Source: Escherichia coli
GTDB lineage: Bacteria > Pseudomonadota > Gammaproteobacteria > Enterobacterales > Enterobacteriaceae
Length of the DNA: 64,000 nucleotides
Assembly (NCBI RefSeq): GCF_016026235.1
Contig: NZ_CP065613.1
Strand: one strand, 5' to 3'
The notes under the pieces were generated by a model. That model was not told the DNA's origin and made no database searches. It saw nothing but the letters and a program-made list of their open reading frames with translations. The position numbers were made by a program, and so were the translations under genes. Positions 12,551-14,954 of the stretch are shown here, one piece after another. Within the stretch, counting starts at the first letter, position 1, and every line of letters starts with the position of its first letter.

Positions 12551-12956
12551 TACCACCTCTTAAAAAAATGCCCACATAGTGTAGTGCGGAGCGCATGTTG
12601 GGTAAACAGAGTGTTAATGAGAAAATATTACAGAGGAGAATAATTTGTGTGTCAGGTATGTTTTTTGCATTCATAAAATGAATGCTCTATATGTTGAAAA
12701 AATGAATTTTAAAGCTAAATAGTTTTACATCAAAAAAATAATAATATCATTTCTTGATTACCATGTGCATTTTTTATCTTACGAATATGCTAGTTTTATC
12801 TTACTAAATAAACGATTTGGTGACATGGATGATAATGTTTCAGGCTAAATGTGTGCTTATTACTTGGGCCTTTATGGCACTGTATTTATTCATTAAATGG
12901 ATGTTTGGTGGTTAATTATTATGGAAATATATGACAGTGAGGACATAAAGGTATAA

Positions 12957-13892
12957 ATGTTAACTAAAAGAATATTATTTTCTTTAATGCTAATAGTTTC
13001 ACCAGGCGTGGTGGCAAGCGAGAAAGCGCATGAATTGTATGACAGCATATACGGTGGTAAACCTGCTCCCGATGTTATAAATACACTGCATAAAATGGCT
13101 GAATCGGGAGATATCGACGCGCAGAGCCTGTTAGGCTGGGAATATTATCAGCCTCGCTATGATACCAAACCTGATGTTCAGGAAGCGATTAAATGGTTCG
13201 AGTTAGCCGCTAAACAAGGTGACAGAGAAGCTCCGTTAGCGCTGGGGAGTATCTACTACGACGGTGAGCAGGTGCGGGTGGATTATGCCAAAGCGTATGC
13301 ACTATTTAATCAGGCCGCGCAATACGGTGTGAATTTAGCATGGTCCAGGTTGGGCATGATGTACGCCAATGGTCAGTATGTTGAGGTAGATTGTAAGAAA
13401 GCGAAGGAATATCTTGATAAAGGTGTCCACATTTATGGTGGCCCGGAAGACTTTCTGGCTACTTGTCGAAAAGACATGATTGACAGAAAAACGGTTGAGG
13501 ATATGTTACCCGTGATCACGGTTACCCGTTCTGGGATGCGGGATAATTTTTTAGATAAAGGTTTTTCCTGCATGGATAGCCACTTCGCCACCACCAATAA
13601 ATTAGGCGAAGTGGCCAATCTTCGCGTGACATTCAGCATTCGTCGCCCATCCGGTAAGGAGATTAACCAAACGGTTGGCTTCGCGCCTTTCGGTTTAAAC
13701 CGGCTGAATATTAGCTTTACTGATTACCTATTTGGTTCATTTACCAGTAATTCGTCTCTTATTCTTTATAAACCGGAATTTGAGCGAAAATCTTGTGCAA
13801 CTGTAAGGACCACAATCGTTGCCGCAACGGCAACCATTAACGGCAAGGATGTGGAGTTGCTGAAAGCGGGGGCAATTGAACAAAAGTGGTAA
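12957..13892 (+). CDS. secreted Sel1-like repeat (SLR/TPR-like) protein with unassigned C-terminal domain
   Basis: 311-aa ORF; N-terminal signal peptide MLTKRILFSLMLIVSPGVVAS; repeated AxxWFxxAAxQG/YANG motifs; SD AAGG upstream; sits in an insert absent from K-12 (memory). Confidence 0.75.
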   Translation: MLTKRILFSLMLIVSPGVVASEKAHELYDSIYGGKPAPDVINTLHKMAESGDIDAQSLLGWEYYQPRYDTKPDVQEAIKWFELAAKQGDREAPLALGSIYYDGEQVRVDYAKAYALFNQAAQYGVNLAWSRLGMMYANGQYVEVDCKKAKEYLDKGVHIYGGPEDFLATCRKDMIDRKTVEDMLPVITVTRSGMRDNFLDKGFSCMDSHFATTNKLGEVANLRVTFSIRRPSGKEINQTVGFAPFGLNRLNISFTDYLFGSFTSNSSLILYKPEFERKSCATVRTTIVAATATINGKDVELLKAGAIEQKW

Positions 13893-13947
13893 CGCTACTC
13901 AGCCCCCGGCTGAGGCAAGACTTGCCCTGGCGGGTGGCGATAATAAT

Positions 13948-14490
13948 CTAAGCCGCGAGAATATGCTGAATCGCCAAAAACATAGGTACAGCACCAAAAG
14001 CATTTGGTGTCGCTGAAAGCTGAACAAAGCCGAGACGAGCATAAAAGTTAATGGCGGCAGGGTCAGCATCAAGATAAACCCCTTTAATTGGTAATGCCTG
14101 GTGAATTATTTTTACATGTTCAAAAAAATCACATAGTAGGTCCTGACCAAAGCCCCGCTTTTGATACTTCCGCGCTATCCCCAACATGACTAATCTGACA
14201 ACACCAATTTCTGAAGGTTGTGAACCCTGAAGGACGCCAGAAACGCGTTGTTTTTCCAGCGAATATGCCGTAAAAGTACAGATGCCAATCAGTTCACCAC
14301 TTTGTCTGTCAATAAGTGCTTTAGCCGCACAGTCGCTATTACGCACACTTTTCTTTAGCGATGCGCGTACAAATTTATCGATAACAGGGTTACCGCAATC
14401 AAACTGTTTTTGCCCAGGATAAGTAATATCAGACTGATAATTACAGGAGAGGACTATGGGCAGAGTAATCTCTTCATGCTTGTCGACCAT
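13948..14490 (-). CDS. GNAT-family acetyltransferase toxin (TacT/ItaT/KacT-like type II toxin)
   Basis: 180-aa ORF with GNAT acetyl-CoA motif (RKYQKRGFGQDLL); overlaps upstream antitoxin stop by 17 nt. Confidence 0.8.
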   Translation of the reverse strand: MVDKHEEITLPIVLSCNYQSDITYPGQKQFDCGNPVIDKFVRASLKKSVRNSDCAAKALIDRQSGELIGICTFTAYSLEKQRVSGVLQGSQPSEIGVVRLVMLGIARKYQKRGFGQDLLCDFFEHVKIIHQALPIKGVYLDADPAAINFYARLGFVQLSATPNAFGAVPMFLAIQHILAA

Positions 14491-14785
14491 CGCTGTTTTT
14501 CCTTTTCATTAACGCCTTGAGGGCGAGCGTCGGTTGAGCAGGTTCAGCGATGAGTTGGTTCATCAGTTCCCAGCTTTGATTCGAAAGCTCACGGCGACGT
14601 TGGTTATCAAGCACACTTTCGGCGCGTTCCATAGCAGCGCTCAAAATAAAAGCGCTTAAATCTACCCCAACGGCTTGCGCAGCTTCACGAAGTTTGTTTT
14701 TGGCGTCGGGACTAGTTTTGAGTTCGACCCGCGCATTTTTCAGCGTTTTATCGACATCGTGTAGAGTGGCTGTTTTTCCAGGCAT
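14474..14785 (-). CDS. DUF1778 (RHH-type) antitoxin partner of the GNAT toxin
   Basis: Met at 14785 with SD AGAGG; about 103 aa; precedes and overlaps the toxin gene; the ORF extension to 14851 is likely artefactual. Confidence 0.75.
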   Translation of the reverse strand: MPGKTATLHDVDKTLKNARVELKTSPDAKNKLREAAQAVGVDLSAFILSAAMERAESVLDNQRRRELSNQSWELMNQLIAEPAQPTLALKALMKRKNSDGRQA

Positions 14786-14838
14786 TATGACCTCTTTGAT
14801 TAACTGAATGAAATCGTAGGGAGTCGATCTCATACATA

Positions 14839-14916
14839 ATACGGCTATCAACCGTATGATTAATTTATGTGCATCTGCTCACTCTGTCAAGAGATACGGT
14901 TATTAGCCGTATCTCT
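14839..14916. promoter_or_regulatory. two palindromic operator-like sites (ATACGG-N7-CCGTAT) upstream of the antitoxin gene
   Basis: 14839..14857 ATACGGctatcaaCCGTAT; 14890..14916 AGAGATACGGttattagCCGTATCTCT (10-bp perfect arms). Confidence 0.45.
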
Positions 14917-14926
14917 GATCTCAGAC

Positions 14927-14954
14927 AATAAAAAAGGTGCCGTAGCACCTTTTT
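14927..14954 (-). terminator. putative intrinsic terminator downstream of cyoE
   Basis: hairpin AAAAAGGTGC-cgta-GCACCTTTTT; on the minus strand it is followed by a U-run. Confidence 0.5.

What the first reader, a model, noticed from the sequence alone, without database searches (positions are those of the whole stretch)
13948..14785. GNAT-toxin / DUF1778-antitoxin type II TA module
Two minus-strand ORFs overlap by 17 nt in antitoxin-first order. The upstream ~103-aa protein from Met 14785 looks like a DUF1778 RHH antitoxin (...RVELKTSPDAKNKLREAAQAVGVDLSAFILSAAMERAESVL...). The downstream 180-aa protein is a GNAT acetyltransferase (RKYQKRGFGQDLL acetyl-CoA motif). By established knowledge this family (TacAT, ItaRT, KacAT, AtaRT) acetylates aminoacyl-tRNAs to block translation. 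This is a known class, but the copy is absent from K-12 at this locus and its tRNA specificity is unknown.
Basis: partly seen in the sequence, partly recalled or inferred. Interest (0 to 1): 0.5.

Follow-up and report, generated by a model that had tools for sequence, protein, structure and literature searches.

The report
Known ItaR-ItaT toxin-antitoxin module
This gene pair is a near-identical copy of ItaR-ItaT, an E. coli toxin-antitoxin system already characterised by experiment, whose toxin stops protein synthesis by acetylating isoleucyl-tRNA, so the finding is correct but ordinary.

Summary
Two minus-strand ORFs (103 aa, 14785..14474; 180 aa, 14490..13948) overlap by 17 nt in antitoxin-first order. 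The class assignment is also right: the toxin matches GNAT Pfam families and the antitoxin matches TacA1/DUF1778.

The pair is not an uncharacterised family member. It is ItaRT itself. The toxin is 179/180 identical to ItaT of E. coli HS (only V105I). The solved structure PDB 7BYY is ItaT(G115D). The antitoxin is 102/103 identical to ItaR (P9H). All residues shown experimentally to matter are kept: Y150, G115, V36, I37, F40 and M102.

For the HS allele, published work shows toxicity, neutralisation by ItaR, autorepression by the complex and target specificity. The main target is Ile-tRNAIle, with Val- and Met-tRNA also acetylated.

The module lies in a ~2.3-kb low-GC island between yajR and cyoE, together with a Sel1-repeat gene. 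The island is present in 1367 of 5426 complete E. coli genomes, including HS and B, and is absent from K-12.

One small addition: a palindrome, ATACGG-N7-CCGTAT, flanks the predicted promoter in two copies and recurs upstream of diverged plasmid homologues. It is probably the ItaR operator.

Verdict: already known, low interest.

The parts
14474..14785 (-). itaR: antitoxin, 103 aa, with an N-terminal RHH/DUF1778 domain and a C-terminal toxin-binding region
   Evidence: ORF and sequence. Pfam PF08681 TacA1, E=1.1e-17, residues 19-96. Closest solved chains are KacA (E=3.6e-11) and AtaR-type DUF1778. 102/103 identical to ItaR of E. coli HS, differing only by P9H. The exact sequence is on record on 192 public contigs.
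13948..14490 (-). itaT: GNAT toxin, 180 aa, an aminoacyl-tRNA N-alpha-acetyltransferase
   Evidence: ORF. Pfam PF13508, PF13673 and PF00583, all above cut-off. E=5.9e-118 to PDB 7BYY, which is ItaT(G115D). 179/180 identical to wild-type HS ItaT, differing only by V105I. V36, I37, F40, M102, G115 and Y150 are all present. The exact sequence is on record on 166 public contigs.
14474..14490 (-). 17-nt overlap of the itaR 3' end with the itaT start. An AGGA lies 9 nt upstream of the itaT ATG, inside itaR. This arrangement suggests translational coupling.
   Evidence: Read directly from the sequence. The coupling itself is inferred.
14862..14890 (-). Predicted sigma-70 promoter of itaRT: TTGACA (14890..14885), 17-nt spacer, TAAATT (14867..14862)
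   Evidence: Consensus scan, 10 of 12 matches, joint best score in the scanned 2.6 kb. Promoter activity and its repression by the ItaR-ItaT complex were shown for the HS upstream region (PMC6125619). The window differs from HS at 2 positions of the 178 nt compared, which run from the itaR start codon upstream. The exact hexamers are predicted, not mapped.
14890..14916 (-). Distal palindrome AGAGATACGG-N7-CCGTATCTCT (core ATACGG-N7-CCGTAT at 14894..14912), abutting the -35 hexamer. Probable ItaR operator.
   Evidence: The core occurs only twice in the 64-kb window against 0.01 expected. It is conserved in HS and in strain 2013C-4282.
14839..14857 (-). Proximal palindrome ATACGG-N7-CCGTAT, just downstream of the -10 hexamer and so around the expected transcription start. 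Probable ItaR operator.
   Evidence: The same palindrome lies upstream of the Citrobacter plasmid homologue, and a GTACGG-N7-CCGTAC variant lies just downstream of a TTGACT-17-TAATAT promoter-like site, read by eye from the printed sequence, in the Serratia plasmid homologue.
14791..14796 (-). Shine-Dalgarno AAGAGG of itaR, 5 nt upstream of ATG 14785
   Evidence: Read from the sequence.
12650..14925 (.). Low-GC insertion island of about 2.3 kb between yajR and the cyoE terminator. It carries a Sel1-repeat gene (12957..13892, +) plus itaT and itaR. The boundaries are approximate.
   Evidence: Alignment to the 148-bp K-12 yajR-cyoE intergenic region. GC is 42% against 50.8% for the whole window. 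Present in 1367 of 5426 complete E. coli genomes.

Best explanation
This is an allele of the itaRT type II toxin-antitoxin operon described in E. coli HS and BL21. The likely mechanism has four steps.

1. A sigma-70 promoter just downstream of the cyoE terminator drives a bicistronic mRNA, itaR followed by itaT, with a 17-nt overlap.
2. ItaR (RHH/DUF1778) binds ItaT tightly and neutralises it. The complex represses the operon, most likely through two ATACGG-N7-CCGTAT palindromes that bracket the promoter.
3. [quoted passage not shown] The Q110-K-R-G-F-G115 motif binds acetyl-CoA and Y150 acts as the general acid. The main target is Ile-tRNAIle, with Val- and Met-tRNA as lesser targets. A hydrophobic pocket (V36, I37, F40, M102) selects the side chain.
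4. N-acetylated aa-tRNAs cannot take part in elongation, so ribosomes pause at Ile codons and growth stops. Peptidyl-tRNA hydrolase can reverse the damage.

Basis of each part: the biochemical steps were shown experimentally for the HS allele, not for this copy. The sequence identity, gene order and motifs were shown here. Applying the mechanism to this V105I/P9H allele, and the operator assignment, are inferences.
For: The toxin is 179/180 and the antitoxin 102/103 identical to the HS proteins, and computed masses of 19.8 and 11.4 kDa match the paper. PDB 7BYY is ItaT(G115D) and matches at E=5.9e-118. Pfam gives GNAT and TacA1/DUF1778. All functionally tested residues are kept (PMC7367177 and PMC6125619). 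Both I and V occur at position 105 in natural homologues: I in the Citrobacter plasmid protein, V in the Serratia one. P9H lies outside the Pfam-matched domain, which covers residues 19-96. Promoter and palindromes. Published experiments on the HS allele cover toxicity, rescue by ItaR, loss of toxicity in Y150A, complex formation, autorepression and Ile-tRNAIle acetylation (PMC6125619). They also cover Val and Met as additional substrates and the pocket mutants (PMC7367177), and Ile-codon pausing and Pth rescue (PMC9177977). The same locus, cyoE-itaR-itaT-TPR-yajR, is seen in HS.
Against: Nothing substantive. This particular allele (ItaT I105, ItaR H9) has not itself been assayed. The operator role of the palindromes rests on position and conservation only. 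No clear intrinsic terminator follows itaT (z = -1.06). NCBIfam has no dedicated ItaT model, only weak sub-threshold GNAT hits, so RefSeq labels the gene generically.
Confidence: 0.96

Rival explanations
1. The copy is a functionally altered allele. V105I lies in strand beta-4 next to the acetyl-CoA motif and could change activity or aa-tRNA specificity. P9H in ItaR could weaken neutralisation or DNA binding.
For: These two substitutions are the only differences from the characterised proteins. The window alleles are the minority: 166 and 192 contigs, against at least 1000 each for the HS alleles.
Against: V to I is conservative. Ile is the native residue at this position in the 79%-identical Citrobacter homologue. 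Position 105 is not among the pocket or catalytic residues identified by mutagenesis. Residue 9 of ItaR lies N-terminal to the Pfam-matched domain. Both alleles recur on many independent contigs, which is consistent with neutral polymorphism.
Confidence: 0.03
2. The GNAT protein is a housekeeping or detoxifying acetyltransferase rather than a toxin, and its pairing with a small RHH gene is incidental.
For: RefSeq labels it only 'GNAT family N-acetyltransferase'. The weak NCBIfam hits are to spermidine and mycothiol acetyltransferases.
Against: Those NCBIfam hits fall far below their cut-offs: 18.9 bits against 250, and 17.7 against 163. A protein differing by one residue is toxic, is neutralised by the upstream gene product and acetylates aa-tRNA (PMC6125619). 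The closest solved relatives are all TA toxins: ItaT, KacT, AtaT and TacT.
Confidence: 0.01

Closest known systems
ItaR-ItaT (itaRT) of E. coli HS (the paper prints the locus tags as EcHs_A0501-EcHs_A0501) and BL21(DE3) (ECD_00377-ECD_00378); Wilcox et al. 2018, NAR (PMC6125619); structure PDB 7BYY (Zhang et al. 2020, PMC7367177)
   Same: Same chromosomal locus between cyoE and yajR. Same gene order, lengths and 17-nt overlap. Toxin 179/180 and antitoxin 102/103 identical. The 838-nt module differs at 5 positions, and the 178 nt compared from the itaR start codon upstream differ at 2. All tested functional residues are kept.
   Different: ItaT V105I and ItaR P9H. One upstream change extends the distal palindrome from 6-bp arms to 10-bp arms, and another falls in the promoter spacer. 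No functional consequence is expected.
KacAT of Klebsiella pneumoniae (PDB 5ZGN, 5XUN)
   Same: GNAT toxin with a DUF1778 antitoxin, antitoxin-first operon. The antitoxin is the best non-self PDB match (E=3.6e-11). The toxin aligns over residues 29-159 (E=1.9e-6).
   Different: A distant paralogue with low sequence identity. It is a different clade and a different host.
AtaRT of E. coli O157:H7 (PDB 6AJM, 6AJN, 6GTS and related) and TacAT of Salmonella (PDB 5FVJ, 7AK8 and related)
   Same: Same fold, same acetyl-CoA motif, same catalytic Tyr and the same chemistry, N-alpha-acetylation of aa-tRNA.
   Different: Weak sequence similarity (E of 1e-5 to 1e-3). Different preferred substrates: AtaT is biased to Gly and was originally reported on Met-tRNAfMet, while TacT prefers Gly. 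They also fall in different phylogenetic clades: AtaT in A, ItaT in B, TacT3 and AtaT2 in D (PMC9177977).
Plasmid-borne ItaRT homologues in Citrobacter freundii (pRHBSTW-00697_3) and Serratia marcescens
   Same: Toxins 79% and 62% identical. Same gene order, and in Citrobacter the same 17-nt overlap. The upstream ATACGG-N7-CCGTAT palindrome, or its GTACGG variant, is conserved.
   Different: They are on plasmids, and the Citrobacter copy lies near a 'baseplate protein' gene. There is no Sel1-repeat neighbour. They are uncharacterised.

Membership tests
ItaRT (the specific system) | Near-identity of the toxin to experimentally characterised ItaT | tested here: met
   179/180 identical to HS ItaT. 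E=5.9e-118 to 7BYY, which carries the engineered G115D.
ItaRT (the specific system) | Near-identity of the antitoxin to ItaR, and the same chromosomal locus | tested here: met
   102/103 identical. Same cyoE / itaR / itaT / TPR / yajR arrangement as in HS.
ItaRT (the specific system) | Substrate-pocket residues V36, I37, F40 and M102, which set the Ile/Val/Met preference | tested here: met
   All four are present. Their role comes from mutagenesis and structure in PMC7367177.
GNAT/DUF1778 (TacAT-type) type II TA | Toxin has a GNAT fold with the acetyl-CoA motif Q/R-x-x-G-x-G/A | tested here: met
   Pfam PF13508, PF13673 and PF00583 above cut-off. The motif is Q110-K-R-G-F-G115. G113 and G115 are invariant among the homologues aligned.
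GNAT/DUF1778 (TacAT-type) type II TA | Catalytic general-acid tyrosine | tested here: met
   Y150 is present and invariant. The Y150A and Y150F mutants lose or reduce toxicity in the HS protein.
GNAT/DUF1778 (TacAT-type) type II TA | Antitoxin with an RHH DNA-binding domain of the DUF1778/TacA family | tested here: met
   PF08681 at E=1.1e-17 over residues 19-96. Secondary hits to the RHH families NikA, MobA and RelB. PDB matches to KacA and AtaR-type chains.
GNAT/DUF1778 (TacAT-type) type II TA | Antitoxin-first, overlapping two-gene operon | tested here: met
   17-nt overlap, itaR upstream.
GNAT/DUF1778 (TacAT-type) type II TA | Autorepression of the operon by the antitoxin-toxin complex | not testable with these tools
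   Shown for the HS promoter region (PMC6125619). Here only the sequence features can be seen: a promoter plus two flanking palindromes that are conserved in homologues.
GNAT/DUF1778 (TacAT-type) type II TA | Toxin arrests growth, the antitoxin neutralises it, and aa-tRNA is acetylated | not testable with these tools
   Published for the HS allele, which differs by one residue in each protein. Not assayed for this allele.

The most novel reading that the evidence does not exclude
The two ATACGG-N7-CCGTAT palindromes bracketing the promoter are the ItaR operator, which is not described in the main text of the original ItaRT paper. They are conserved across chromosomal and plasmid homologues. 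The I105/H9 allele or the co-inherited Sel1-repeat gene might give the island a role beyond a selfish TA, such as stabilising the island or aborting phage infection. None of this would change the kind of system.
Probability: 0.1. Interest if true: 0.25.

Novelty: already known. Interest (0 to 1): 0.08.

Why it matters
It matters little for discovery. The system, its structure, its targets and its regulation are published. The practical value is better annotation. RefSeq labels these genes only 'GNAT family N-acetyltransferase' and 'DUF1778 domain-containing protein' or 'TacA family antitoxin', yet they can be named itaT and itaR with confidence. About a quarter of complete E. coli genomes, including the B/BL21 laboratory lineage, carry the island at the yajR-cyoE junction. 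The conserved palindrome gives a concrete, testable candidate for the ItaR operator.

Tried and rejected
1. NCBIfam gave only sub-threshold generic hits and no dedicated ItaT or ItaR model.
2. PADLOC had no defence-system model matching ItaT or ItaR. The Sel1 protein gave a weak hit to PtuA with no stretch passing the threshold on its own, treated as noise.
3. Plasmid collection: the three 99% hits are 1.2-4.8-Mb records, which I take to be chromosomes or chromosome fragments filed as plasmids. The plasmid-sized homologues are only 65-72% identical at the DNA level.
4. Phage collection: the two 99% hits are unannotated contigs of 2.3 and 6.5 kb. These are probably host DNA and give no evidence of phage carriage.
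5. An intrinsic terminator after itaT: the fold is no better than shuffled sequence (z = -1.06), and the consensus scan lists none there.
6. The full-text search for 'itaRT' returned mostly unrelated acronyms. Only the two ItaT papers were relevant.
7. The TTG at 14851 as the itaR start (125 aa) was rejected in favour of ATG 14785. The reasons are the Shine-Dalgarno site, the RefSeq annotation, the published 11.4-kDa mass, and the fact that TTG 14851 lies inside the proximal palindrome.
8. Structure prediction and the large protein-database searches were not run. A solved structure and a 99% match made them unnecessary.

Full report
**Observation.**
The minus strand carries a 180-aa ORF (14490..13948, ATG start, TAG stop). 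Upstream of it is an ORF whose Met at 14785 gives a 103-aa protein ending at 14474. The two share 17 nt (14474..14490). An AAGAGG Shine-Dalgarno sits 5 nt before ATG 14785, and an AGGA lies 9 nt before the toxin ATG, inside the antitoxin gene. RefSeq annotates the same two CDSs in three E. coli genomes.

**What it is.**
- Pfam places the 103-aa protein in PF08681 (TacA1/DUF1778, E=1.1e-17, residues 19-96), with secondary ribbon-helix-helix hits.
- Pfam places the 180-aa protein in three GNAT families, all above their gathering cut-offs.
- Against the PDB, the toxin matches chain 7BYY_A over its whole length at E=5.9e-118 with two differences.
- The paper that deposited 7BYY states that it is ItaT(G115D) from E. 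coli HS (PMC7367177). One of the two differences is therefore the engineered mutation.

I fetched the locus from an E. coli HS assembly and translated it. The window toxin differs from wild-type ItaT only by V105I. The antitoxin differs from ItaR only by P9H. The 838-nt module differs at 5 nucleotides. Computed masses of 19.82 and 11.40 kDa match the 19.8 and 11.4 kDa reported for ItaT and ItaR. The next-best solved relatives are far more distant: an unnamed N-acetyltransferase (9ILR, E=3e-9), KacT (E about 2e-6), AtaT (about 1e-5) and TacT (about 8e-4) for the toxin, and KacA (3.6e-11) and AtaR-type chains for the antitoxin. The pair is therefore ItaRT itself and not a new relative of it.

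**Functional residues.**
The window protein keeps Y150, the general acid, whose Y150A mutant abolishes toxicity and whose Y150F mutant reduces it. It keeps G115 of the acetyl-CoA motif Q110-K-R-G-F-G115. It also keeps the hydrophobic pocket residues V36, I37, F40 and M102, which select the aminoacyl side chain (roles). Position 105 is Ile in the 79%-identical Citrobacter plasmid homologue and Val in the Serratia one, so both residues occur naturally there. Residue 9 of ItaR lies outside the Pfam-matched domain. Both window alleles already exist in public data, on 166 and 192 contigs. They are rarer than the HS alleles, which are each on at least 1000 contigs.

**Mechanism.**
These steps were shown for the HS allele and are inferred for this one.
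- ItaT expression arrests growth by blocking translation. ItaR co-expression rescues growth. The two proteins form a tight complex that represses the itaRT promoter. ItaT acetylates the amino group of Ile on Ile-tRNAIle (PMC6125619).
- Val-tRNAVal and Met-tRNAMet are also substrates in vivo and in vitro. Leu-, Ala- and Phe-tRNA are not significantly acetylated (PMC7367177).
- Ribosome profiling shows pausing at Ile codons (AUU and AUC more than AUA). Peptidyl-tRNA hydrolase counteracts toxicity, which places the block at elongation (PMC9177977).

**Regulatory anatomy.**
This is partly new detail and is inferred. The joint best-scoring promoter-like site in the scanned region is TTGACA-17-TAAATT at 14890..14862 on the minus strand, just downstream of the cyoE terminator hairpin at 14954..14931. 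Two copies of the palindrome ATACGG-N7-CCGTAT flank it.
- One abuts the -35 hexamer. In this strain it is extended to 10-bp arms (14890..14916).
- The other lies just after the -10 hexamer (14839..14857).

The core TACGG-N7-CCGTA occurs only at these two places in the 64-kb window, against 0.01 expected by chance. Both copies are kept in HS and in a 92%-identical variant island. The palindrome recurs upstream of the Citrobacter plasmid homologue. In the Serratia plasmid homologue it appears as GTACGG-N7-CCGTAC immediately after a TTGACT-17-TAATAT site that I read by eye from the printed sequence. The rest of those upstream regions looks unrelated by eye. This is the expected signature of an RHH-antitoxin operator. 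The words operator, palindrome and inverted repeat do not appear in the main text of the original ItaRT paper. I found no clear intrinsic terminator after itaT.

**Genomic context.**
K-12 has only a 148-bp yajR-cyoE intergenic region. The window has about 2.3 kb inserted there, roughly 12650..14925, with 42% GC against 50.8% for the whole window. The insert carries a 311-aa Sel1-repeat protein gene (12957..13892, +), convergent with itaT, plus itaRT. No mobility gene appears in the ORF list or in the RefSeq annotations of the island. The island covers at least 80% of the query in 1367 of 5426 complete E. coli genomes, including HS and B strains. The other matching genomes share only the cyoE end. 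Absence from K-12 is confirmed. The ItaRT paper itself notes the BL21(DE3) copy.

**Comparison and novelty.**
Every membership feature that can be tested by sequence is met, both for the GNAT/DUF1778 family and for ItaRT specifically. Toxicity, neutralisation, autorepression and target specificity cannot be tested with these tools, but they are published for proteins that differ by one residue each. Novelty is 'already known'. Interest is low at 0.08. The only additions are a better gene name than RefSeq currently gives and a candidate operator.

**Dead ends.**
- NCBIfam has no specific model for either protein.
- PADLOC has no hit for ItaT or ItaR.
- The high-identity plasmid and phage hits are megabase-sized records filed as plasmids and tiny unannotated contigs.
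- The terminator fold is not significant.

Noticed in passing
window 14839-14857 and 14890-14916; L005 and L006 upstream of the antitoxin genes: The palindrome ATACGG-N7-CCGTAT occurs twice, bracketing the predicted itaRT promoter, and nowhere else in the 64 kb (0.01 expected). It recurs upstream of homologues on plasmids with toxins 79% and 62% identical, where the surrounding sequence looks unrelated by eye. It is a likely ItaR operator and is not mentioned in the main text of the 2018 ItaRT paper.
   Followed up: partly
window 12957-13892 (+): A 311-aa Sel1-repeat protein, annotated as a tetratricopeptide repeat protein, with a hydrophobic N-terminal leader. It is convergent with itaT and inherited with it in the same low-GC island. 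The listed best Sel1 stretch covers residues 54-89, and no Pfam family was reported for roughly the C-terminal half. It is not linked to the ItaRT homologues on plasmids. Its function is unknown.
   Followed up: partly
window about 12557-12650: The first ~100 nt upstream of yajR are clearly diverged from K-12, at roughly 70% identity estimated by eye from the alignment. The yajR coding sequence and the cyoE side are nearly identical to K-12. The island boundary on the yajR side is therefore a diverged stretch and not a clean junction.
   Followed up: no
L005 (Citrobacter freundii plasmid pRHBSTW-00697_3), 1500-3144: The closest plasmid-borne ItaRT homologue lies about 300 bp from a gene annotated 'baseplate protein' on a ~99-kb non-mobilizable plasmid. 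This may be a phage-plasmid that uses the TA for maintenance.
   Followed up: no
L003 (E. coli FDAARGOS_943), itaT at 2849-3391: The best-matching genome (99.9% over 2.4 kb) carries a further ItaT variant, Q78 in place of L78. Together with the 857 distinct sequences in the 90% cluster, this points to many minor alleles of this toxin in E. coli and Shigella.
   Followed up: no
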